Positions 1-5,758 of a stretch of 5,758 nucleotides of DNA are shown here, one piece after another. Position numbers and translations under genes: made by a program. Source of the stretch: a virus; the IMG/VR virus record IMGVR_UViG_3300045988_003271, positions 1 through 5,758 of that record; one strand, 5' to 3'. A model generated the notes under the pieces. That model ran no database searches. It was not told where the DNA came from and saw only the letters and a list, made by a program, of their open reading frames with translations. Position 1 is the stretch's first letter, and the number at the start of each line of letters is the position of its first letter.

Positions 1-55
1 GACAGGCACAAGCACAGACGAACAGGCATTTGGGTACCAAGAGTGCTGGGCCGAA
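1..55. repeat. Terminal direct repeat, copy 1. It is identical to 5704..5758 and marks the overlap of a circular genome or assembly.
   Basis: A base-by-base comparison shows gacaggcacaagcacagacgaacaggcatttgggtaccaagagtgctgggccgaa at both window ends (55/55 identical). Confidence 0.97.
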
Positions 56-313
56 TACAGAATGAAGCCAAACCGAATCTGTGGCAAATTCCGAAGCAAC
101 GCAACCGGTACACTGGATAGTTGGCACTACGGTGACAACTACAAGGAAGTGCCAAACTTGAGTCAAGCATGGATGAAAGAAGGAGATTCCGAAATCCAGC
201 GAACTCTCGCAGTAGACAACGAACCGCAATTTATCATGGACACTGTCATCGACAACACCAGCGTCAGACCTATGCCCATGTACAGTATTCCGGGCCTCGT
301 TGACCATCACTAA
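1..313 (+). CDS. VP1: Major capsid protein VP1, C-terminal part. It continues from 4313..5703 across the circular junction. Codons start at position 2 and the stop TAA is at 311..313.
   Basis: The frame matches the ORF leaving the window at 5758 (positions = 2 mod 3). The track ORF 62..313 is only the piece after an internal Met. The sequence ...[22 protein letters not shown]...[10 protein letters not shown] resembles the conserved C-terminus of microvirus F/VP1 capsid proteins as I recall it. The joined gene is 1704 nt, or 567 aa. Confidence 0.93.
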
Positions 314-326
314 GAAAGGGGGAAAG

Positions 327-357
327 CCCGGGGGCAAAACCCCGGGTTTATTTATTT
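327..357 (+). terminator. GC-rich hairpin plus T-rich tail between VP1 and VP2, a candidate intrinsic terminator or attenuator
   Basis: cccgggg (327..333) pairs perfectly with ccccggg (340..346) around the 6-nt loop gcaaaa. It is followed by tttatttattt and lies 14 nt after the VP1 stop. Confidence 0.55.
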
Positions 358-1152
358 ATGTTAGCAGGACTTGGAAGCGCATTACTAGGAATCGGAAAAC
401 AGTTACTGCCAACGGTCGCAAGCTGGGGCTTAAACAAACTACTCGGCGGAAACATGAGCGAAAGCAACGGTGGAAGCCAACAGCACAACGAAAGCACAAG
501 CGCCGGCGGCGGCACAAGCACCAGCGAAAGCGGCGTAAACAGAGAACAAAATCTGCAGGACTGGAATAGTATGCTTGGAGCAATCCAAGCAAATATGCAA
601 AGCCAGCAAAAGTTTAACCGAAAAAGCATGTTTGAACAAATGGGATATAACACCATGGCGGCAATCACGCAAGGAGTATATAACCAGATAAGCAACAACG
701 CGGCGATGAGCTACAATAGCGCGGAGGCCGCAAAAAACAGAGCTTGGCAGGAACAAATGAGCAACACAGCCTATCAAAGGGCTGTAGCTGACATGAGAAA
801 AGCGGGAATCAACCCTATCCTAGCATACCAACAGGGCGGAGCAAGCACACCGGGTGGAGCACAAGGCACAATCAGCGGGGCAAGTATGGGACTTGCAAGC
901 AGTAGCGCGGCAAGCGCGAGTGCGCTGGGCGTGAACCAAAACCACAACAACACATGGAGCAAAAGCGAATCAAACTGGTACAACGCGGCACAAGCAGTCG
1001 GAGACGCAACAAGTTGGTCACACACAAGCGCAGACAAAGCTCTAAAAGCGATGGAAGAAGTGTTTAACAAGCTGGAAAACGTGAGCGAAAAAAGCACATA
1101 CAACGCAGGCGGAGGCGCATCACACGGCGCAGGAGCAGGAAGAGGCAGATAA
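358..1152 (+). CDS. VP2: VP2-like minor capsid / DNA pilot protein (264 aa)
   Basis: It lies directly downstream of VP1, as in gokushoviruses. It has a hydrophobic N-terminus ([18 protein letters not shown]) and G/S/A/N/Q-rich low complexity. The block [28 protein letters not shown] matches the conserved core I recall for gokushovirus VP2. No clear SD precedes the ATG. Confidence 0.82.
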
Positions 1153-2172
1153 ATGGGATGCAATAAACCGTTAATCCGGTTCTATGTACCTCATAACAGG
1201 GAGGCGAGTGGGCGAGTGTACTCACTCGCCTCTTTTAACGAGATACACAAGACCAAAATGACTTACGAAAATTTAATGTACAGAAAAGATGTAATGTTGA
1301 TACCATGCGGACAATGCACAGGGTGCAGACTGCGCAAGCGTAAAGACTGGTCAACGCGAATGGAGCTGGAAGCATACGGACACAACAAAGAAAGTATCTG
1401 GTTTATTACGCTAACTTACGATGATGACCACGTACCAACACAGGACACGGAAACAGGCGAAATCTACAAAGGCGGAATAAACATCTGGAAAGGCGCCTCA
1501 GAGCGTCCAAAAACAGCGCAAACTCTAAGCGTAGGGGATACCCAACTATTTATGAAAAGGCTCAGAAAGGCCATCAAAGAGCCTCTAAGATACTTTTTAG
1601 CGGGAGAGTACGGAGACAACACAGCAAGACCGCACTATCATATGATACTATATGGATGGCATCCGGACGACTTAAAACCAATCCATAAGCTGTCAAGGTA
1701 CGGCCACTATACAAGCGATAAGCTAGTAAAAATCTGGGGACAAGGCGCGGTCGACATCGCACAGGCAACACCGGAAACATATAATTATGTTGCAGGGTAT
1801 GTGACCAAAAAGCTATACGGCAACGACAAAAAGCGTTACCAAAAAATGGGTTTAATACCACCATTTTGCACTATGAGCCGGAAGCCGGGACTAGGAGACA
1901 AATGGTTCGAGGACAACCAAGAACGACTCTGGCAACAAGGGTACATACAGCTTACCAACGGCAAAAGAGCGGCCATACCAGAATACTATTGGCGAAAACT
2001 GGAAGTTGAAAACCCTGAAAAAGCATGGAGAATCAAGAAATATCGACAGGAAAAAGCCATAGCGTCCCTAATCGAGAGAAACGCGGAAACCGATAAACCA
2101 TACGCGGAGCAACTGAAGGACAAAGAGACCTCCATGGCCAAAAAGATGAGCAAAGCCAAAGGCATATTTTGA
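1153..2172 (+). CDS. VP4: VP4 rolling-circle replication initiation protein (HUH endonuclease, 339 aa)
   Basis: It carries PCGQCTGCRL, the motif FITLTYDD, and the HUH motif RPHYHMILYG (HYH codons at 1633..1641). The catalytic-Tyr motif YNYVAGYVTKK lies at 1780..1812. An SD-like GGAAGAGG ends 7 nt upstream, and the ATG abuts the VP2 stop (TAAATG). Confidence 0.95.
   Translation: MGCNKPLIRFYVPHNREASGRVYSLASFNEIHKTKMTYENLMYRKDVMLIPCGQCTGCRLRKRKDWSTRMELEAYGHNKESIWFITLTYDDDHVPTQDTETGEIYKGGINIWKGASERPKTAQTLSVGDTQLFMKRLRKAIKEPLRYFLAGEYGDNTARPHYHMILYGWHPDDLKPIHKLSRYGHYTSDKLVKIWGQGAVDIAQATPETYNYVAGYVTKKLYGNDKKRYQKMGLIPPFCTMSRKPGLGDKWFEDNQERLWQQGYIQLTNGKRAAIPEYYWRKLEVENPEKAWRIKKYRQEKAIASLIERNAETDKPYAEQLKDKETSMAKKMSKAKGIF
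1201..1236 (+). other. Strong hairpin inside the 5' end of VP4, built from a tandem 8-mer plus its inverted copy and followed by TTTT
   Basis: gaggcgagtg (1201..1210) pairs 10/10 with cactcgcctc (1223..1232). An alternative register pairs ggcgagtg (1211..1218) with cactcgcc (1223..1230) around the loop tact. GGCGAGTG is tandemly duplicated at 1203..1218. T1233..T1236 follow the stem. Confidence 0.7.
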
Positions 2173-2185
2173 AACTTTGGTGTCA

Positions 2186-2223
2186 CTCAGCCAAGTAACT
2201 ATCAAGTAAGCTACTTGGCTGAG
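2186..2223 (+). terminator. Perfect 12-bp hairpin 14 nt after the VP4 stop, a candidate terminator and/or ssDNA structural element
   Basis: ctcagccaagta (2186..2197) pairs perfectly with tacttggctgag (2212..2223) around a 14-nt loop. A moderately T-rich tail, cattttattgatttgtt, follows. Confidence 0.5.
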
Positions 2224-2241
2224 CATTTTATTGATTTGTTA

Positions 2242-2285
2242 AATGCACACGCGCGCGCACGTAATCGCGCACACGCACGTGCATT
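2242..2285. repeat. Imperfect GC-rich palindrome made of alternating purine-pyrimidine tracts
   Basis: Arms 2242..2261 and 2266..2285 pair at 15 of 20 positions around the loop taat. Positions 2243..2263 (21 nt) and 2266..2284 (19 nt) alternate R/Y perfectly. A 24-nt pure A/T run (2283..2306) follows. Confidence 0.85.
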
Positions 2286-2339
2286 ATATTATTATTTTTT
2301 TATTAACTTGTTGTAGTCGTAGTAGTAGGGAGTGTTGAA

Positions 2340-2423
2340 ATGTTGAATACTATGAATTTTTATCCTTGGAACGATATTTTTTGGCTAATTTTAATGTTGA
2401 TACTTTTGTGGATAACTTGTTGA
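2340..2423 (+). CDS. Hypothetical 27-aa hydrophobic micro-protein (MLNTMNFYPWNDIFWLILMLILLWITC)
   Basis: The ATG at 2340 sits 7 nt after the SD-like GGGAG (2328..2332), and the TGA stop is at 2421..2423. The C-terminal 15 residues are almost entirely hydrophobic. The region is AT/T-rich, so this could be a chance ORF. Confidence 0.25.
   Translation: MLNTMNFYPWNDIFWLILMLILLWITC
2407..2415 (-). promoter_or_regulatory. Perfect DnaA-box consensus (TTATCCACA on the - strand)
   Basis: The + strand reads tgtggataa at 2407..2415, the exact reverse complement of TTATCCACA. It sits at the same place in a duplicated module as the box-like site at 2471..2479. Confidence 0.35.
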
Positions 2424-2444
2424 AATGTTGAAAGCGTAGCAATA

Positions 2445-2464
2445 TGCACAAAAACCTTTGTGCA
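2445..2464 (+). other. 8-bp hairpin between the two repeat modules
   Basis: tgcacaaa (2445..2452) pairs perfectly with tttgtgca (2457..2464) around the loop aacc. Confidence 0.6.
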
Positions 2465-2470
2465 ACATTT

Positions 2471-2479
2471 TGTGGAAAA
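2471..2479 (-). promoter_or_regulatory. DnaA-box-like 9-mer (TTTTCCACA on the - strand; fits TTWTNCACA)
   Basis: The + strand reads tgtggaaaa at 2471..2479. It lies within the potential hairpin caaca-tttt[gtgg]aaaa-cc-tgttg (2463..2486). Confidence 0.3.
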
Positions 2480-2549
2480 CCTGTTGAAAGTGTTGAAAGT
2501 GTTGAAAAAGCAAATAAAGGCAGTCCGGCGAGCGAAACCGAAAAGTTGC

Positions 2550-2589
2550 GTCATGCTCTTCGCACGGCGCACCGCGCCTAACGCATGAC
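2550..2589 (+). other. GC-rich nested stem-loop in the intergenic region
   Basis: The outer stem gtcatgc (2550..2556) pairs with gcatgac (2583..2589). The inner hairpin is ggcgc (2566..2570), loop acc, gcgcc (2574..2578). It forms a GC island inside an AT-rich region. Confidence 0.55.
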
Positions 2590-2628
2590 CTTCAACACAA
2601 AAAATTCTAAACTTTTTTGAAAAAAACC

Positions 2629-2657
2629 TTAACTTTTTCGATAAAGTGTGGTAGAAT
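2629..2657 (+). promoter_or_regulatory. Sigma70-type promoter with an extended -10 element, driving the small-ORF cassette
   Basis: The -35 is TTAACT (2629..2634). After a 17-nt spacer, TG (2649..2650) and one further nt precede the -10 TAGAAT (2652..2657). An SD and start codon follow 10 to 30 nt downstream. Confidence 0.55.
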
Positions 2658-2684
2658 ATAATCACAGGAAGGAAGGTGCTAAAG

Positions 2685-2870
2685 ATGACGCACTACTACG
2701 AACTCAGAAGCTTTGAAGATGACAGAACAATAAAGACTGTACTCAAAATCTCAGCGGAACCAAAATACGCAAAACAAAGAGCAAGAGAATACGCAAAACG
2801 AAACCCGGGACTATACTCGCTAGAAAAAGTCAAAAAAGTAGAAACGTACTTCACTGAAAAGGAGAAGTAA
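2685..2870 (+). CDS. Hypothetical small protein, 61 aa. The track gives GTG 2676; I prefer ATG 2685.
   Basis: The SD AGGAAGGAAGG (2666..2676) ends 8 nt before ATG 2685. The product is charged and Lys-rich (MTHYYELRSFEDDRTIKTVLKISAEPKYAKQRAREYAKRNPGLYSLEKVKKVETYFTEKEK). I recognise no family. Confidence 0.6.
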   Translation: MTHYYELRSFEDDRTIKTVLKISAEPKYAKQRAREYAKRNPGLYSLEKVKKVETYFTEKEK

Positions 2871-2871
2871 A

Positions 2872-3069
2872 ATGAGAAAACCTAGACTGAACGAAAACAC
2901 AATAGCAAAACTCGAAATCTACGGATATGCGAAATGTAGCAAATACTACTACGAACTAACAGACTACATCGACGAGGAAGGAAACCGCTACACGGAACTT
3001 GAACGGACGGACTTAAAAACCGGAGACATAAAAACATACAATTGGGAAAAATACACAAAAGGGGCTTGA
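2872..3069 (+). CDS. Hypothetical small protein, 65 aa
   Basis: The SD AAAGGAG (2858..2864) lies 7 nt before ATG 2872. The start is 1 nt after the upstream stop. Its own stop codon is embedded in the intrinsic terminator hairpin. I recognise no family. Confidence 0.6.
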   Translation: MRKPRLNENTIAKLEIYGYAKCSKYYYELTDYIDEEGNRYTELERTDLKTGDIKTYNWEKYTKGA

Positions 3070-3086
3070 CAAGCCCCTTTTTTTTT
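3057..3086 (+). terminator. Rho-independent terminator closing the two-ORF cassette
   Basis: ggggctt (3061..3067) pairs 7/7 with aagcccc (3071..3077) around the loop gac. It is followed by T9 (3078..3086) and preceded by AAAA (3057..3060), which could extend the stem. Confidence 0.82.
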
Positions 3087-3108
3087 GATAGATTTAAAAC
3101 AGTTAAAC

Positions 3109-3128
3109 AGCACAAAAGTGCTTTTTTT
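3109..3128 (+). terminator. Second, weaker terminator-like hairpin
   Basis: agcac (3109..3113) pairs with gtgct (3118..3122) around the loop aaaa, followed by T6 (3123..3128). Confidence 0.35.
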
Positions 3129-3170
3129 ACAAAACCATTTATACAAAATATTTTTTAGGAGGTGTTTGCT

Positions 3171-3278
3171 CTGACTCTCAAGGAAATTAACGCGCTGTTT
3201 AACAACATCCGCAAAATTTTGGCCATGCTGGACAAGATTTACCACGCAGTAGAGGGCAACGAGAAGCCCAAGGAGTAA
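3171..3278 (+). CDS. Possible micro-ORF (35 aa from CTG 3171; 38 aa from GTG 3162): (M)TLKEINALFNNIRKILAMLDKIYHAVEGNEKPKE
   Basis: A strong SD, TAGGAGG (3156..3162), has no canonical start at proper spacing. An in-frame CTG lies 8 nt downstream. The last codons, AAG GAG TAA, supply the SD for the next ORF. The first in-frame ATG is at 3225. Confidence 0.25.
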   Translation: MTLKEINALFNNIRKILAMLDKIYHAVEGNEKPKE

Positions 3279-3283
3279 CCAAA

Positions 3284-3505
3284 GTGAAAACATGGAACGT
3301 AAGAGACCAGACCGATACGAACCTTATGGAAGAACTGAAGAGAACCTACAAAGAAATCGACGCCACTTACAAGCTACTGCAAAAGGCCGCAAAGTACGAC
3401 GACGCAAAATTTTACCTTGACATGGCGTTCCGAAAAAGGGCAAAAGCAACGGAAATCGAGGTGGAAATCCTCAGAAGGGAAATAAACCATGGGAAAGAGG
3501 AGTAA
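3284..3505 (+). CDS. Hypothetical small helical/charged protein, 73 aa, GTG start
   Basis: The SD AAGGAG (3270..3275) lies 8 nt before GTG 3284. The product looks coiled-coil-like (…EELKRTYKEIDATYKLLQKAAKYDDAKFYLDMAFRKRAKATEIEVEILRREI…). I recognise no family. Confidence 0.55.
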   Translation: MKTWNVRDQTDTNLMEELKRTYKEIDATYKLLQKAAKYDDAKFYLDMAFRKRAKATEIEVEILRREINHGKEE

Positions 3506-3608
3506 AGTCCGCAAATCCAAAGACGCAAAAATTTACAACAGGACCGCAAAAAAGACCAAGGCAATCAACCTTGGAAGCGGCGCAATGCGAGGAGGCATTA
3601 GATTATGA
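3489..3608 (+). CDS. Small basic DNA-binding/packaging protein (39 aa), equivalent to phiX174 J or chlamydiaphage ORF8. It is absent from the ORF track.
   Basis: My own translation gives MGKRSKVRKSKDAKIYNRTAKKTKAINLGSGAMRGGIRL. Thirteen of 39 residues are K/R. The C-terminal MRGGIRL resembles the ending I recall for gokushovirus ORF8-type proteins. An SD-like AAGGGA lies 8 nt upstream, and the stop overlaps the next start (ATGA at 3605..3608). Confidence 0.7.
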   Translation: MGKRSKVRKSKDAKIYNRTAKKTKAINLGSGAMRGGIRL

Positions 3609-3844
3609 TTAACGTGTATGGCATCTATGACCAGTGTGCAATGAGCTACATTACCACCTTTAACGAGCGAGACGACAAAGTCGCCGAGCGCAATTTTAAA
3701 ATTGCGCTGATGGACGAAAACAACATCATGAGCAAAACGCCGAGCGACTACAGACTTGTAAGACTCGCAAAATTCGACGAACACGACGGCACTTTCGAAG
3801 AGAGTAAGGAGAACATTTACGATGGCATATCGCTCAGTAAGTAA
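3605..3844 (+). CDS. VP5: VP5-like non-structural protein (79 aa; gokushovirus ORF5 family, proposed analogue of phiX174 protein C)
   Basis: The pattern Y.IYD…Y…F……AER.F……N…..P.DYRLV.L..FDE.DG.F matches my recollection of the conserved ORF5/VP5 layout. The SD GAGGAGG lies 10 nt upstream, and the gene sits next to VP3. Confidence 0.62.
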   Translation: MINVYGIYDQCAMSYITTFNERDDKVAERNFKIALMDENNIMSKTPSDYRLVRLAKFDEHDGTFEESKENIYDGISLSK

Positions 3845-4316
3845 CTTTCGAGAAACCGCAACAGCAAAACCGACCGAAGCCGGGGAAAGCGTGAGACGCA
3901 CATACCTGTGGGAACGAAACGAAAAAGGCGAAAAAGTGCTGAAACTCGACCAAATCATCGACCAGCAAGCCGAAATCGACTCCTACTTAGAGGAGACCAA
4001 AATAGAAAACATCATTCGGCGGGCAAGCATCGACCCGGAAATCGCGGCACGTATCGCGCCAGACTTAGGCGGAGGAATTCAGGACTTTACCGAAGCGCCG
4101 CATACGCTAGCCGAACTACAGAACATCATGATTCGCGCAGAACAAATCTGGGACGAAGTACCAAAAGAAATCAAGCTCAAATTTGACAACGACGTCGATA
4201 AATTTGTTGCATCGTTTGGAACAGTTGAATGGGCAAAAAACCTAGGCATATACCAGGAAAAACAGACAGAAGCCAAAACAAATGAAGCAACAGAAGCAAC
4301 GGAGGCAAAAGAATGA
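3822..4316 (+). CDS. VP3: VP3 internal scaffolding protein (164 aa)
   Basis: It lies immediately upstream of VP1, with an ATGA stop/start overlap at 4313..4316. The segment …DFTEAPHTLAELQNIMIRAEQIWDEVPKEIKLKFDNDVDKFVASF… matches the F..LP..I+..F.N....F signature I recall for the chlamydiaphage-type scaffold. The tail is acidic and low-complexity. The SD AAGGAG lies 10 nt upstream. Confidence 0.78.
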   Translation: MAYRSVSNFRETATAKPTEAGESVRRTYLWERNEKGEKVLKLDQIIDQQAEIDSYLEETKIENIIRRASIDPEIAARIAPDLGGGIQDFTEAPHTLAELQNIMIRAEQIWDEVPKEIKLKFDNDVDKFVASFGTVEWAKNLGIYQEKQTEAKTNEATEATEAKE

Positions 4317-5758
4317 ACAGAAACAAAGACGCGGGATTTAACCAAGTACCGCGACTGGACATCACGCGAAGCCGCTTTAAAAGGCGACAAGACGTCAAGT
4401 TAACACTTAACGCAGGAAAACTTATCCCGTTCTACATCGATGAAGTACTACCGGGTGATACCTTTAGCATCGACCAAGCGGCAATCATCCGCATGACAAC
4501 TCCAATCTTTCCGGTAATGGATAACTGTTACATGGACATTTATTACTTTTTCACACCGAACCGCATTCTTTGGAAAAACTGGAAGCGGTTTATGGGCGAA
4601 AACGATGCCGGGCCGTGGGCACAAACTCAAGAATACACAATCCCACAAATCAGAGTCTATGCAGACAGCCGCAATGATGTGCCGCTGGAAGGAAGCCTTA
4701 TGGACTACATGGGGATACCGACAAAAGTCTGCAAGAAAGGTAATAAAAATACAGAGTTCGAAGTGAACGCACTGCCATTCAGAGCGTACGCAATGATATG
4801 GCAAGAGTGGTTCAGGGACCAAAATGTAGATAATCCAGCTATAAACAGCGACGGAGACGCAACAGTGTCTTACGCAGACGTTAACGATGACACAAAAATA
4901 GAAGATATACTTAAAGAAGCATATCGAGGCGGCAGACCGTTACCGGTCAACAAATTTCACGACTACTTCACGAGCGCACTGCCAAGTCCACAGAAAGCAG
5001 GAGAGCCGGTAACCATTCCGCTGAGCGGAAGCGCACCACTTGGCATATATAACCCAGCAACAGGACATGTAACAACCAAAAGCAACGAGATGAAAAGTAT
5101 CGTAAGCGAAGCAGGATTAACCATCAACGGCTCAACATTCAGTGCCTCAAGTTGGGACATCGGAGACGGACCTGTAAGGGACAAAGGACTTGCAGTAGGA
5201 AATAGCACATCAACCACATACACCGGCGTAAGCTTAGGGGCAGACCTCTCAAAAATCAACGCAACCACTATCAACCAGCTAAGGCAGGCATTTCAGGTAC
5301 AAAAATACTACGAAGAGTTAGCACGAGGCGGCTCACGCTACCGCGAGATGATTTATTCGCTGTTTCACACCAAAATCAGCGATAAAACGGTACAAATCCC
5401 GGAATATTTGGGCGGTACGCGAATTACCATCAACATGAGTCAGGTCATCCAGACCAGCGGCACAACGACAGAAAGTCCACAGGGCAACACAGCGGCAGTA
5501 TCCGTGACGCCATACAATGGGAGCATGTTCACGAAGAGCTTTGAAGAACACGGCTATGTTATCGGCGTATGTTGCATCCGACATGACCATACTTACCAAC
5601 AGGGACTCGAACGTATGTGGAGTCGAAAAACAAACCTCGACTTTTACTATCCAGTTTTCGCAAATCTGGGTGAACAAGCAATCCTTAAAAAAGAAATCTA
5701 CCTGACAGGCACAAGCACAGACGAACAGGCATTTGGGTACCAAGAGTGCTGGGCCGAA
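4313..5758 (+). CDS. VP1: Major capsid protein VP1, N-terminal and central part. The frame stays open to the window end, and the gene continues at 1..313.
   Basis: The SD GGAGG (4301..4305) lies 7 nt before ATG 4313. My hand translation found no stop through 5758. Family-typical blocks include MNRNKDAGFNQVPRLDITRSRF, GKLIPFYIDEVLPGDTF, LPFRAYAMIWQEWFRDQN, INQLRQAFQVQKYYEELARGGSRYREMIYSLF and HGYVIGVCCIR. Confidence 0.95.
   Translation, partial: MNRNKDAGFNQVPRLDITRSRFKRRQDVKLTLNAGKLIPFYIDEVLPGDTFSIDQAAIIRMTTPIFPVMDNCYMDIYYFFTPNRILWKNWKRFMGENDAGPWAQTQEYTIPQIRVYADSRNDVPLEGSLMDYMGIPTKVCKKGNKNTEFEVNALPFRAYAMIWQEWFRDQNVDNPAINSDGDATVSYADVNDDTKIEDILKEAYRGGRPLPVNKFHDYFTSALPSPQKAGEPVTIPLSGSAPLGIYNPATGHVTTKSNEMKSIVSEAGLTINGSTFSASSWDIGDGPVRDKGLAVGNSTSTTYTGVSLGADLSKINATTINQLRQAFQVQKYYEELARGGSRYREMIYSLFHTKISDKTVQIPEYLGGTRITINMSQVIQTSGTTTESPQGNTAAVSVTPYNGSMFTKSFEEHGYVIGVCCIRHDHTYQQGLERMWSRKTNLDFYYPVFANLGEQAILKKEIYLTGTSTDEQAFGYQECWAE
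5704..5758. repeat. Terminal direct repeat, copy 2 (identical to 1..55)
   Basis: Identity to the first 55 bases is 55/55. Confidence 0.97.

What the first reader, a model, noticed from the sequence alone, without database searches (positions are those of the whole stretch)
2629..3128. Self-contained moron-like cassette: own promoter, two tightly coupled small ORFs, strong terminator
A near-consensus extended -10 promoter (TTAACT, 17 nt, TGgTAGAAT) is followed by two SD-led ORFs of 61 and 65 aa separated by a single nucleotide. Next comes a textbook intrinsic terminator (7-bp GC stem plus T9) that contains the second stop codon, then a second weaker hairpin with a T-tract. Promoter-gene-terminator units of this kind are well known as morons in tailed temperate phages. 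As far as I know they are not a described feature of Microviridae. An insulated transcription unit could be expressed independently of the lytic programme.
Basis: partly seen in the sequence, partly recalled or inferred. Interest (0 to 1): 0.68.

Follow-up and report, generated by a model that had tools for sequence, protein, structure and literature searches.

The report
Swappable accessory-gene cassette in a gokushovirus
A tiny single-stranded-DNA gut phage carries a real promoter–two small genes–terminator unit in a hot spot where related phages swap different small genes of unknown function, which makes it the closest thing so far to the "morons" of large tailed phages, although nothing suggests it is expressed from a dormant prophage.

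Summary
The window is a circular ~5.7 kb gokushovirus genome. Positions 2629..3128 contain a sigma-70 extended -10 promoter (P1), two SD-led ORFs of 61 and 65 aa one nucleotide apart, a strong intrinsic terminator (T1) and a weaker hairpin.

Comparison with about 50 related genomes makes each part credible:
- P1 recurs at a fixed distance before the first gene in 36 of 45 loci, usually as perfect TTGACA-N16/17-TGnTATAAT.
- The T1 stem covaries: 96% paired, with compensatory changes in 7 of 10 pairs.
- Both ORFs are under purifying selection and fold confidently.

The interpretation needs revising:
- ORF1 and ORF2 are independent modules, not a pair. Each usually occurs alone or with other partners, and once in reverse order.
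- They are exchanged between backbones only 40-50% identical in capsid protein. In one genome the shared tract is exactly P1 + ORF1.
- Both families are confined to gokushoviruses.
- T1 carries an invariant TTGACA at its apex and a -10 hexamer 17 nt downstream. It therefore also acts as the promoter (P2) for the downstream core genes.
- I found no sign of lysogeny.
- Protein function remains unknown.

Verdict: a moron-like accessory cassette in a modular, hypervariable expression slot, and a new variant of a known kind.

The parts
2599..2628 (+). A/T-rich tract upstream of P1 (UP-element-like). It includes a tandem near-duplicate of the -35 region (2599..2619 and 2620..2640).
   Evidence: repeat family D4. 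Relatives have a conserved 'caaaaaactcTTGACA' here. The left edge of the tract shared with the divergent genome L008 is at 2605. The UP-element function is an inference.
2629..2657 (+). Promoter P1: -35 TTAACT, 17-nt spacer, extended -10 TGgTAGAAT. Predicted transcription start is near A2664.
   Evidence: The orthologous site in 36 of 45 loci matches the consensus at 10/12 or better. Of those, 15 are perfect 12/12, 30 carry the TG extension, and the -10 ends 27 nt before the ATG in 28. It travels with ORF1 into an unrelated backbone (L008).
2658..2684 (+). Conserved leader with a Shine-Dalgarno sequence (AGGAAGGAAGG, 2666..2676).
   Evidence: The leader 'ataatcaMagaaaggMagg..aaaATG' is shared by cassettes that begin with ORF1 and those that begin with ORF2. 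The only hhalign similarity between the ORF1 and ORF2 alignments is the spuriously translated leader.
2685..2870 (+). ORF1: a 61-aa accessory protein of unknown function with a soluble beta-beta-alpha-beta fold.
   Evidence: 137 clusters of homologs, nearly all on 5-6 kb contigs. 17 invariant columns. Median pN/pS is 0.35, with all 210 pairs below 1. AlphaFold pLDDT is 93. No Pfam, PHROG, NCBIfam, PADLOC or PDB match. The exhaustive profile search gave only 29 representatives.
2872..3069 (+). ORF2: a 65-aa accessory protein of unknown function, a helix followed by a four-stranded sheet. It starts 1 nt after the ORF1 stop, and its SD lies in ORF1's last codons.
   Evidence: 59 clusters with the single-sequence query and 124 with the profile. 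13 invariant columns. Median pN/pS is 0.42, with 98.8% of 248 pairs below 1. pLDDT is 86. No family or structural match. The 1-2 nt junction is kept in L026 and L044.
3057..3086 (+). T1: intrinsic terminator hairpin. The core stem is 3061..3077, extended by A4/T4, with loop GAC, followed by T9. The ORF2 stop codon is in the apex.
   Evidence: -15.3 kcal/mol, z = -4.7. Covariation across 20 distinct sequences: 96% of cells paired, 7 of 10 pairs with compensatory changes, 0 of 500 shuffles reach the score, and the slid controls range from 39 to 77% paired. There is exactly one such element per genome in 27 genomes.
3066..3094 (+). P2: a promoter embedded in T1. The -35 TTGACA sits in the hairpin apex, the 3' stem arm and T-run form the 17-nt spacer, and the extended -10 is TGaTAGATT. 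It is predicted to drive the downstream conserved genes.
   Evidence: It is the best promoter match in the window at 10/12 plus TG. TTGACA is invariant while the stem covaries. All 27 hairpin elements have a -10 matching 4/6 or better at a 16-18 nt spacing, against 32% at other TTGACA sites. TTGACA-17-TAnnnT is kept where the hairpin has decayed or is absent (L007, L012, L013, L016, L017, L022, L024). Function is inferred.
3109..3128 (+). Second hairpin AGCAC-AAAA-GTGCT + T7. It lies about 8 nt into the predicted P2 transcript. It is a doubtful terminator and may be a 5' leader hairpin.
   Evidence: -6.3 kcal/mol, z = -1.8. The hairpin motif is present in 16 of 45 loci, but the T-tract is present in only 4 of those.

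Best explanation
Positions 2629..3128 are one occupant of a hypervariable accessory-gene slot found in gut gokushoviruses. The slot lies between the conserved post-VP4 intergenic region and the conserved small-ORF/VP8/VP5/VP3/VP1 block.

Proposed mechanism:
1. After the ssDNA genome is converted to the double-stranded replicative form, host sigma-70/sigma-A RNA polymerase fires from P1 without phage factors.
2. This yields a bicistronic mRNA of about 420 nt, from about 2664 to the U-tract at 3078..3086.
3. ORF1 and ORF2 are translated in tandem. The SD for ORF2 is encoded by ORF1's conserved C-terminal T-E-K-E codons.
4. Most transcripts stop at T1. The same DNA provides the -35 (hairpin apex) and spacer (U-tract) of a second promoter, P2, which restarts transcription for the downstream core genes.

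ORF1 and ORF2 are independent, self-sufficient modules. The same is true of the alternative occupants I call L1A and L1B. Recombination shuffles them between very divergent gokushoviruses, with breakpoints at P1, at the leader/ATG junction and at T1/P2.

Shown: conservation of P1, covariation of T1, purifying selection on both ORFs, modular presence/absence, decoupling of module identity from backbone identity, restriction to gokushoviruses.

Inferred: actual transcription start and stop sites, P2 activity, early and high expression.

My best guess for the proteins is a dispensable host-interaction role, such as counter-defence, host takeover or exclusion of competitors, rather than a virion or replication role. 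I hold that guess at about 0.35.
For: - Genome identity and gene map.
- Slot variability in the closest GenBank relatives: L002 lacks ORF1, L007 lacks ORF2, L001 and L004-L006 carry other genes, and L003 is a deletion that removes the P1 -10 through two thirds of ORF2.
- Architectures across 52 genomes.
- Module and backbone identity are decoupled. ORF1 is 87% identical in L008, L009 and L012, where VP1 is 41-64% and VP4 34-54%. ORF1 is only 40% identical in L007, where VP4 is 88%. ORF2 is 74-78% identical in backbones with VP4 at about 43%, but 63-72% where VP4 is 93-96%.
- Shared DNA tracts: L008 shares 2605..2878 (P1 + ORF1, 86.5%), with otherwise only the inverted intergenic block (2289..2508, 77.6%) and a short VP1 stretch; L027 and L028 share 2869..3102 (ORF2 + T1/P2, 84%); L026 shares 2295..3284 at 83-92%. 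Synonymous divergence between the window and L008 for ORF1 is only 0.26.
- P1 conservation.
- T1 covariation.
- P2.
- Coding evidence.
- Low GC of the region.
Against: - No transcription data exist for this phage or for any close relative.
- Within the window alone, the promoter motifs are not statistically beyond chance.
- The window's own P1 (9/12 plus TG) is one of the weakest versions in the family.
- The TTGACA in T1 partly overlaps the ORF2 stop codon, so coding constraint contributes to its conservation in loci that end with ORF2. It is, however, also invariant where it is non-coding (L011, L020, L021, L023).
- The T-rich, A/T-rich context inflates the chance of a -10-like hexamer. The background control came from mostly coding TTGACA sites.
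- The locus sample was selected by the presence of ORF1, ORF2, L1A or L1B, so architecture frequencies are biased.
- L003 could be a defective genome rather than proof that the cassette is dispensable.
- Protein function is entirely unassigned.
Confidence: 0.72

Rival explanations
1. P1 is simply the phage's main promoter for the whole downstream operon, and T1 is a leaky attenuator, as in phiX174 where terminators tune dosage. On this view ORF1 and ORF2 are just the promoter-proximal genes, not an insulated unit, and the -10-like hexamer after T1 is fortuitous.
For: All genes are on one strand. P1 sits at the end of the conserved intergenic region and is the strongest conserved promoter. The -10-like hexamers after T1 are mostly 4-5/6 and lie in A/T-rich sequence. 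Another strong terminator follows VP1, which resembles the phiX174-type dosage architecture (established knowledge).
Against: TTGACA in the hairpin apex is invariant while every other stem position covaries. TTGACA-17-TAnnnT persists upstream of the next gene where the hairpin is lost or was never present (L007, L012, L013, L016, L017, L022, L024). L003 has lost the P1 -10 but keeps T1/P2 and all core genes. P1 moves together with ORF1 into an unrelated backbone (L008).
Confidence: 0.18
2. It is a classical moron in the strict sense: a unit expressed from a repressed prophage that benefits the lysogen through lysogenic conversion or superinfection immunity.
For: It has promoter-gene-terminator anatomy, distinct composition and variable presence. 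Some gokushoviruses are temperate through XerCD/dif (PMC7062461). One contig (L049) joins a related phage to bacterial DNA.
Against: There is no integrase or repressor gene and no dif-like motif. No relatives of VP1 or ORF1 were found in 185,579 bacterial and archaeal genomes. The L049 junction cuts both the feoB and VP1 coding sequences with only about 6 nt of microhomology and is followed by tandem phage copies, so it looks like an amplification or assembly chimera or illegitimate recombination.
Confidence: 0.05
3. ORF1 and ORF2 form an obligate two-component system, either a heterodimer or a toxin-antitoxin-like pair. That would explain the 1-nt spacing and translational coupling.
For: The 1-2 nt junction with an embedded SD is conserved in the three ORF1-ORF2 genomes. 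Both proteins are small, as in toxin-antitoxin pairs. ORF1 has a weak fold resemblance to the T4 antitoxin Dmd (TM about 0.6).
Against: Each gene occurs without the other in most genomes: ORF2 alone in 18, ORF1-M15 in 15, plus ORF1-L1B-M15, ORF2-L1B and the reversed order ORF2-ORF1. Their identities to the window copy vary independently. ORF1's C-terminal SD couples it equally to an M15 peptidase or to L1B. Neither protein matches PADLOC models.
Confidence: 0.05
4. The covarying hairpin at 3057..3086 acts on the packaged single-stranded DNA rather than on RNA, for example as a complementary-strand origin or a packaging signal. On this view the T-run is incidental.
For: The phage is single-stranded, and its + strand has the same sense as the mRNA, so covariation and G-T wobble pairs cannot distinguish DNA from RNA. 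Filamentous phages use promoter-like hairpins as minus-strand origins (established knowledge, recalled from memory).
Against: The hairpin is always followed by a run of 5-12 T and always sits at the 3' end of the last slot gene. This is the signature of an intrinsic terminator. Some related genomes lack the hairpin entirely, which is unlikely for an origin. A far better origin candidate exists in the conserved iteron block at 2289..2508.
Confidence: 0.04

Closest known systems
Morons of tailed temperate phages (lambdoid and HK97-type; Juhala, Hendrix and colleagues, recalled from memory)
   Same: An autonomous unit of sigma-70 promoter, one or more small genes and an intrinsic terminator, lying between backbone genes. 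It is present in some relatives and absent in others, has different base composition, and spreads horizontally with its own expression signals.
   Different: The carrier is a 5.7-kb ssDNA microvirus with no sign of lysogeny. The genes come from a gokushovirus-only pool rather than from bacteria or other phages. All occupants use one fixed slot with a shared promoter and leader. The terminator doubles as the promoter for the next backbone genes.
Accessory genes of microviruses as catalogued by Kirchberger, Martinez and Ochman 2022 (PMC9239249)
   Same: That paper notes small accessory proteins (about 65 aa on average) of unknown function linking different microvirus groups, M15 peptidase accessory genes, and one 700-nt recombinant tract carrying a peptidase between distant microviruses. 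ORF1 and ORF2 fit this class.
   Different: That paper does not describe a defined slot, promoter/terminator signals or modular shuffling, and it leaves open whether such links are spurious. Here the links are shown to be real, selected genes that are exchanged together with their expression signals.
Defensive hypervariable region of enterogokushoviruses (Kirchberger et al. 2021, PNAS; known to me only through citing papers PMC9512667 and PMC10002423)
   Same: A hypervariable, horizontally variable part of a gokushovirus genome, proposed to mediate competition between phages.
   Different: That region lies inside the DNA pilot protein gene (VP2) of temperate Enterobacteria phages. It is not a separate promoter-gene-terminator unit.
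phiX174 transcription layout (promoters pA, pB, pD; leaky terminators after J, F, G, H; established knowledge)
   Same: Constitutive host-polymerase promoters and intrinsic terminators on a single coding strand set gene dosage in a microvirus. There is also a terminator after the major capsid gene (window 324..349).
   Different: phiX174 has no dispensable, exchangeable cassette, and no terminator hairpin known to carry the next promoter's -35 in its apex.
Anti-defence / early accessory gene islands of phages, such as anti-CRISPR loci and T4 Dmd
   Same: Very small, fast-shuffling genes behind a strong constitutive promoter, found in mosaic combinations in otherwise unrelated phages. ORF1 shows a weak fold resemblance to Dmd (TM about 0.6).
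   Different: There is no sequence or significant structural match to any known anti-defence protein (Foldseek E of 0.1 or worse). There is no Aca-like regulator and no functional data.

Membership tests
Moron (tailed-phage sense) | Own promoter directly upstream of the gene(s) | tested here: met
   Extended -10 sigma-70 motif at 2629..2657. It is conserved at a fixed distance in 36 of 45 loci and moves with ORF1. This is sequence and comparative evidence only, with no transcript mapping.
Moron (tailed-phage sense) | Own factor-independent terminator directly downstream | tested here: met
   Hairpin + T9 at 3057..3086, -15.3 kcal/mol, with strong covariation.
Moron (tailed-phage sense) | Extra DNA between two backbone genes, absent from otherwise similar relatives | tested here: met
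   L002, L003 and L007 lack one or both ORFs. L001 and L004-L006 carry other genes between the same flanks.
Moron (tailed-phage sense) | Base composition different from the surrounding genome | tested here: met
   36-39% GC against 45-53% in core genes. The neighbouring intergenic region is equally low.
Moron (tailed-phage sense) | Carried by a temperate phage and expressed from the prophage | tested here: not met
   No integrase, repressor or dif-like site. No prophage relatives in 185,579 genomes. Expression itself is not testable here.
Moron (tailed-phage sense) | Gene of foreign (bacterial or other mobile element) origin that confers a host phenotype | tested here: not met
   Homologs occur only in gokushovirus genomes. 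There are none in plasmids or bacterial genomes. Phenotype is not testable.
Intrinsic (Rho-independent) terminator | GC-rich stem-loop immediately followed by a U-tract, at the 3' end of a gene, with the structure conserved | tested here: met
Sigma-70 extended -10 promoter (P2 inside T1) | -35 TTGACA, 16-18 nt spacer, TGn + TAnnnT, conserved upstream of a gene | tested here: inconclusive
   10/12 plus TG in the window. TTGACA is invariant. A -10 matching 4/6 or better is present in 27 of 27 elements, against 32% in the background. However, the sequence overlaps a coding/stop region and a T-rich context, and there is no transcription start data.
Toxin-antitoxin or obligate two-gene system | The two genes co-occur and are inherited together | tested here: not met
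   They co-occur in 4 of 52 genomes, once in reversed order.
Known anti-phage defence or anti-defence protein families | Sequence or structural match to a described family | tested here: not met
   PADLOC, Pfam, PHROGs, NCBIfam, PDB sequence search and Foldseek against PDB and BFVD give nothing significant apart from another microvirus protein.

The most novel reading that the evidence does not exclude
Gut gokushoviruses maintain a dedicated plug-and-play expression slot. It consists of a fixed consensus promoter and leader at the 5' side and a bifunctional terminator/promoter at the 3' side. Small counter-defence or host-takeover genes (ORF1, ORF2, L1A, L1B and others) are swapped into it between lineages that are otherwise too divergent to recombine. 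Functionally this would be an integron-like or moron-like accessory system in the smallest DNA phages. On this reading ORF1 is a Dmd-like inhibitor of a host toxin or defence nuclease.
Probability: 0.25. Interest if true: 0.75.

Novelty: new variant of a known kind. Interest (0 to 1): 0.55.

Why it matters
Microviruses are usually regarded as minimal phages with almost no accessory genome and little gene exchange (PMC9239249). This locus shows that an abundant group of human and animal gut gokushoviruses keeps a defined hot spot. In it, very small genes move between lineages whose capsid proteins are only 40-50% identical, and each gene carries or shares ready-made expression signals.

This matters for four reasons:
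1. It gives a concrete and testable explanation for the unexplained ~65-aa proteins that link microvirus groups in gene-sharing networks.
2. It provides two well-folded, strongly selected orphan protein families (ORF1 and ORF2) as candidates for phage-host or phage-phage conflict functions.
3. It offers what appears to be the first comparative evidence for promoters and terminators in gokushoviruses. This includes a compact terminator that also serves as the next promoter, which could be useful as a synthetic-biology part.
4. The promoter type is canonical TTGACA/TGnTATAAT with strong AGGAGG-type ribosome-binding sites. That argues against a Bacteroidota host and narrows the host search.

Tried and rejected
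- **Family assignment.** Pfam, PHROGs, NCBIfam and PADLOC gave nothing for ORF1 or ORF2. PDB sequence profiles gave nothing.
- **Structure comparison.** Foldseek against PDB gave no hit below E = 0.3. Foldseek against BFVD for ORF1 found only another microvirus orphan. The Dmd resemblance is kept as a lead only.
- **Exhaustive profile search for ORF1.** It returned 29 representatives. The long ones are spurious eukaryotic or low-complexity proteins.
- **Homology between ORF2 and the alternative first-position gene L1A.** hhalign gave E = 0.017 and probability 2.7%, which is inconclusive.
- **Origin outside microviruses.** No matches in plasmids, in bacterial genomes for ORF1, or in non-microvirus phages.
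- **Long contigs that suggested a non-microvirus context.** L048 is a head-to-tail dimer assembly. L049 is a bacterial-phage junction cutting two coding sequences and is probably a chimera. The attempt to name the bacterial side failed because the clusters carry no names.
- **Lysogeny.** No dif-like motifs and no prophage relatives.
- **Rfam.** Only sub-threshold minus-strand hits were found: SraG at 35 bits against a gathering score of 50, and STnc50. Both overlap the terminators, and I judge them to be chance.
- **Literature.** My own recollection that the Kirchberger 2021 hypervariable region was an accessory-gene slot was wrong. Citing papers place it in the pilot protein. The paper itself is not held in the library.
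Full report
**1. What the window is**

The first 55 bases repeat at 5704..5758, so the window is a circular genome of about 5703 nt. All genes are on the + strand:
- VP1 major capsid: 4313..5703 joined to 1..313 (Phage_F, E = 5e-114).
- VP2 pilot protein: 358..1152.
- VP4 replication initiator: 1153..2172.
- A 512-nt intergenic region: 2173..2684.
- The two ORFs of the finding.
- Small ORFs: 3162..3278 and 3284..3505.
- A 39-aa basic VP8-like ORF: 3489..3608.
- VP5: 3605..3844 (Phage_ORF5).
- VP3 scaffold: 3822..4316 (Chlamy_scaf).

This is a gokushovirus. Its nearest GenBank relatives are human, monkey and pig faecal 'Gokushovirus WZ-2015a' and 'Microviridae sp.' genomes at 82-86% nucleotide identity. 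None of them annotates anything in the region of the finding.

**2. The observation**

- P1: TTAACT-17-TGgTAGAAT at 2629..2657.
- ORF1: 2685..2870 (61 aa).
- ORF2: 2872..3069 (65 aa).
- T1: hairpin plus T9 at 3057..3086, with the ORF2 stop in the loop.
- Second hairpin: 3109..3128.

T1 folds at -15.3 kcal/mol (z = -4.7). The second hairpin folds at only -6.3 kcal/mol (z = -1.8).

Taken alone, the promoter is not beyond chance. The simple scan finds 7 promoter-like sites against 6.6 expected. The complete extended -10 pattern with up to 3 mismatches occurs exactly twice in the genome, at P1 and at 3066..3094, and 19 of 200 shuffles do as well. The case therefore rests on comparison with relatives.

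**3. The region is a hypervariable slot**

Alignment with the seven closest GenBank genomes shows conserved flanks around variable content. The flanks are the intergenic region up to about 2624 and everything from about 3057-3102 onward.
- L002 (KT264788) has P1 followed directly by ORF2, with no ORF1.
- L007 (MG945657) has P1 and ORF1 but no ORF2.
- L001 (KT264790) has P1 followed by two unrelated small ORFs, which I call L1A and L1B, and then T1.
- L004 and L005 have L1A only.
- L003 (KT264789) keeps the P1 -35 and then has a deletion. The deletion removes the -10, the leader and two thirds of ORF2, while T1 and all core genes are retained.

**4. Both ORFs are real genes in phage-restricted families**
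- ORF1 has 137 homolog clusters (58-93% identity). ORF2 has 59 clusters with the single-sequence query and 124 with a profile.
- Nearly all homologs sit on contigs of 5-6 kb.
- The three apparent exceptions were examined or explained. P0046's 10.5-kb contig is a head-to-tail dimer assembly. P0240's 14-kb contig is bacterial DNA fused to 1.76 tandem phage copies (see section 10).
- The alignments have 17 invariant columns for ORF1 and 13 for ORF2, with no internal indels.
- Median pN/pS is 0.35 for ORF1 (210 pairs, all below 1) and 0.42 for ORF2 (248 pairs, 98.8% below 1).
- AlphaFold gives confident small folds. ORF1 has pLDDT 93 and a beta-beta-alpha-beta topology. ORF2 has pLDDT 86 and is a helix plus a four-stranded sheet.
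- Nothing significant matches in Pfam, PHROGs, NCBIfam, PADLOC, PDB sequence search or Foldseek against PDB.
- In BFVD the only significant neighbour of ORF1 is another microvirus orphan (E = 3.6e-6). The T4 antitoxin Dmd appears in both libraries as a weak analog (TM about 0.6, E of 0.1 or worse). I keep that only as a lead.
- An exhaustive HMM search of 1.84 billion representatives found just 29 ORF1 relatives. The two long ones are spurious.
- tblastn against 50,697 phage records finds both ORFs only in Microviridae and gokushovirus records.
- There is no match in plasmids, and no ORF1 relative in 185,579 prokaryotic genomes.

**5. The ORFs are independent, exchangeable modules**

I fetched 40 IMG/VR genomes encoding ORF1 or ORF2, and a few encoding L1A or L1B. 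The slot architectures across 52 genomes are:

| Architecture | Genomes |
|---|---|
| ORF2 alone | 18 |
| ORF1 then M15 peptidase | 15 |
| L1A alone | 5 |
| ORF1-ORF2 (including the window) | 3 |
| ORF1 alone | 2 |
| ORF2-L1B | 2 |
| none/other | 2 |
| L1A-L1B | 1 |
| ORF1-L1B-M15 | 1 |
| ORF2-ORF1 (reverse order) | 1 |
| ORF2-M15 | 1 |
| L1B (partial contig) | 1 |

This sample was selected by slot content, so the frequencies are biased.

Module identity is decoupled from backbone identity:
- ORF1 is 87% identical to the window copy in L008, L009 and L012, whose VP1 is 41-64% and VP4 34-54% identical.
- ORF1 is only 40% identical in L007, whose VP4 is 88% identical.
- ORF2 is 74-78% identical in genomes with VP4 at about 43%, but 63-72% in genomes with VP4 at 93-96%.

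At the DNA level:
- L008 shares with the window essentially only 2605..2878 at 86.5%. This tract is P1, the leader and ORF1. It also shares an inverted copy of the intergenic block.
- L027 and L028 share 2869..3102 (ORF2 plus T1/P2) at 84%.
- L026 shares 2295..3284 at 83-92%, in a backbone with VP1 at 52% and VP4 at 44%.
- Synonymous divergence between the window and L008 for ORF1 is only 0.26, while the rest of the two genomes does not align.

The modules therefore move by recombination. Breakpoints lie just upstream of P1, at the leader/ATG junction and at T1/P2. The region is also compositionally distinct, at 36-39% GC against 45-53% for core genes.

**6. P1 is a conserved promoter**

In 36 of 45 loci the sequence upstream of the first slot gene matches the sigma-70 consensus at 10 of 12 positions or better. 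Within those 36:
- 15 are perfect TTGACA/TATAAT.
- 30 carry the TG extension.
- The spacer is 17 nt in 20, 16 nt in 15 and 18 nt in 1.
- The -10 ends 27 nt before the ATG in 28.

P1 is followed by a conserved leader (ataatcaMagaaaggMagg) regardless of whether ORF1, ORF2 or L1A comes first. Gene callers have even translated this leader as spurious N-terminal extensions ('MWYNIIKERQVIK-M...'). That extension is the only similarity hhalign finds between the ORF1 and ORF2 alignments. The window's own P1 (9/12 plus TG) is a slightly degraded member of this family.

**7. T1 is a conserved terminator that also carries a promoter**

I aligned 20 distinct versions on their invariant TTGACA. Of all cells, 96% form standard pairs. 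Seven of 10 pairs show compensatory double changes, for example GGGGC/GCCCC, GAGGC/GCCTC, CCGGAG/CTCCGG and GACGGAG/CTCCGTC. None of 500 shuffles reaches the observed covariation score. Sliding the partners drops pairing to 39-77%.

In 27 genomes there is exactly one such element (TTGACA hairpin plus T-run), always at the 3' end of the last slot gene.

The apex hexamer TTGACA never varies, even where it is non-coding (L011, L020, L021, L023). It is followed 16-18 nt later by a -10-like hexamer (TAGATT, TACAAT, TATAAT, TATACT and others) in 27 of 27 elements, against 32% at other TTGACA sites. Where the hairpin has decayed (L007) or is absent (L012, L013, L016, L017, L022, L024), TTGACA-17-TAnnnT still precedes the next gene.

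In the window this is TTGACA-17-TGaTAGATT at 3066..3094, the best promoter match in the genome. I therefore read T1 as a composite. It is a terminator for P1 transcripts on the RNA, and it is promoter P2 for the downstream conserved genes on the duplex DNA. P2 activity is inferred, not shown.

The second hairpin would lie about 8 nt into the P2 transcript. Its T-tract is kept in only 4 of the 16 loci that have the hairpin. It is more likely a leader hairpin than a terminator.

**8. Translational coupling**

ORF1's nearly invariant C-terminal F-T-E-K-E is encoded by ...gaaaaggag.... This sequence serves as the SD for whatever follows within 1-5 nt: ORF2 in the window, L026 and L044; L1B in L008; and the M15 peptidase in many other lineages. 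The tight spacing is thus a property of ORF1's 3' end, not evidence of a functional ORF1-ORF2 partnership.

**9. Lysogeny and the 'independent of the lytic programme' idea**

I found no integrase or repressor, no dif-like motif, and no prophage relatives of VP1 or ORF1 in the genome collection. The simplest reading is constitutive, immediate and probably high expression from the replicative form during productive infection. Function is unknown. The properties of these genes are most typical of host- or competitor-interaction genes:
- very small size;
- dispensability (the L003 deletion, and relatives lacking either gene);
- strong promoter;
- rapid modular exchange;
- restriction to one phage group.

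I commit to that class at about 0.35 probability.

**10. Comparison with known systems and novelty**

Anatomically the unit meets four of six defining moron features: own promoter, own terminator, insertion between backbone genes with relatives lacking it, and distinct composition. It fails two: a temperate carrier, and foreign gene origin. It works like a moron but is not a classical one.

In the literature I could search:
- 'Moron' co-occurs with Microviridae only as a PHROG category label, with none found in microviruses.
- No paper describing gokushovirus promoters or terminators was found.
- The enterogokushovirus 'defensive hypervariable region' lies in VP2.
- Kirchberger et al. 2022 mention unexplained ~65-aa accessory proteins linking groups, and one recombinant peptidase tract.

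I therefore classify this as a new variant of a known kind.

**11. Side observations**

These are listed separately in the noticed-in-passing section. The most notable is the 220-nt iteron-rich block at 2289..2508.
- It is present in 49 of 52 genomes at 70-99% identity, even across backbones that are about 40% identical.
- It is inverted in six genomes.
- One case is an in-place inversion between two genomes that are about 84% identical.
- In the window it contains a perfect DnaA-box sequence within a hairpin arm.

Noticed in passing
window 2289..2508 (also L016 1542..1753 and L017 2641..2852): An iteron-rich block with six or more TGTTGAAA repeats, two copies of TTTTGTGGAWAACYTGTTGAAA, and a hairpin at 2445..2464. 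It is present in 49 of 52 gokushovirus genomes at 70-99% nucleotide identity, even where the proteins are only 40-50% identical. It is in + orientation in 43 genomes and inverted in 6 (L008, L012, L014, L016, L022, L024). L016 and L017 are collinear at 82-86% identity except for this 212-nt block, which is inverted in place and flanked by GC-rich quasi-palindromes. It is a candidate origin or protein-binding element that works in either orientation.
   Followed up: partly
window 2407..2415 and 2471..2479: TGTGGATAA is a perfect DnaA-box consensus (reverse complement TTATCCACA). A near-copy, TGTGGAAAA, lies 64 nt downstream. The first box lies in one arm of inverted repeat 2404..2414 / 2443..2453. 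There is a single match against 0.14 expected, and 25 of 200 shuffles also give a match, so this is not significant on its own. It might mark a DnaA-dependent complementary-strand origin. That idea comes from memory and was not tested.
   Followed up: partly
window 2340..2423: A 27-aa hydrophobic ORF (MLNTMNFYPWNDIFWLILMLILLWITC) with a GGGAG SD lies inside the 'intergenic' block. It is conserved with conservative substitutions in L002-L007. It could be a small membrane or lysis peptide, or just a by-product of DNA-level conservation. The block's inversion in some genomes argues for the latter.
   Followed up: no
window 3601..3611; L001 5148..5264, L002 4756..4872, L003 4545..4661, L006 4769..4885: Several close relatives have an extra 38-aa transmembrane ORF (for example VNIIIWIGCIASLIAICSASFALIAMGIDIIKNWKEKE) between the VP8-like gene and VP5. 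The window lacks it entirely. It is a second indel hot spot and a possible lysis or membrane peptide.
   Followed up: no
L049 1..14362 (junction at about 4007): An ENA contig joins 4 kb of bacterial DNA (MerR, aldo-keto reductase, Fe-dependent repressor, FeoA, FeoA, FeoB N-terminus; 39.7% GC) to 1.76 tandem copies of a gokushovirus that has an ORF2 homolog and an M15 peptidase. The junction cuts both the feoB and VP1 coding sequences with about 6 nt of microhomology. It is probably an amplification or assembly chimera or illegitimate recombination. The bacterial taxon could not be named.
   Followed up: partly
L009, L011-L024, L048, L050 (for example L048 3016..3593): In more distant gokushovirus lineages, ORF1 (or an ORF2 homolog) is immediately followed by a Peptidase_M15 (endolysin-like) gene. 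The two are either translationally coupled or separated by the composite terminator/promoter. The window's lineage has no M15 peptidase, so how it lyses its host is unclear.
   Followed up: partly
window 3157..3278: The conserved 38-aa ORF downstream of T1 is listed with a GTG start at 3162 that overlaps the AGGAGG SD (3157..3162). A CTG at 3171 (TTG in L030) sits at the optimal 8-nt spacing and is probably the true start, giving a 35-aa product. The protein is 75-97% conserved in close relatives.
   Followed up: no
window 324..349: A strong terminator-like hairpin (AAGCCCGGGGGCAAAACCCCGGGTTT, -20.5 kcal/mol, z = -2.9) followed by ATTTATTTAT lies directly after the VP1 stop and before VP2. This resembles the phiX174-type layout that boosts capsid mRNA.
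   Followed up: no
window 3056..3217, minus strand: Sub-threshold Rfam hits to the enterobacterial sRNAs SraG (35 bits against a gathering score of 50, E = 0.003) and STnc50, overlapping the two hairpins on the non-coding strand. I judge them to be chance matches driven by the terminator-like hairpins. T1 is symmetric (A4...T9), so it also scores as a minus-strand terminator.
   Followed up: no
window 2186..2223, 2242..2285 and 2550..2589: Three further inverted repeats in the intergenic region: a 15-nt arm pair at 93% complementarity right after VP4, a GC-rich (GCACACGCGCGC)n palindrome, and GTCATGC...GCATGAC just upstream of P1. They are conserved in close relatives. Their function is unknown.
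   Followed up: no
L003 (KT264789) 3900..3935: This published 'complete genome' is a deletion derivative of an L002-like phage. The P1 -35 is fused to the last third of ORF2, leaving a gene remnant plus T1/P2. It is either natural evidence that the cassette is dispensable or a defective genome.
   Followed up: partly
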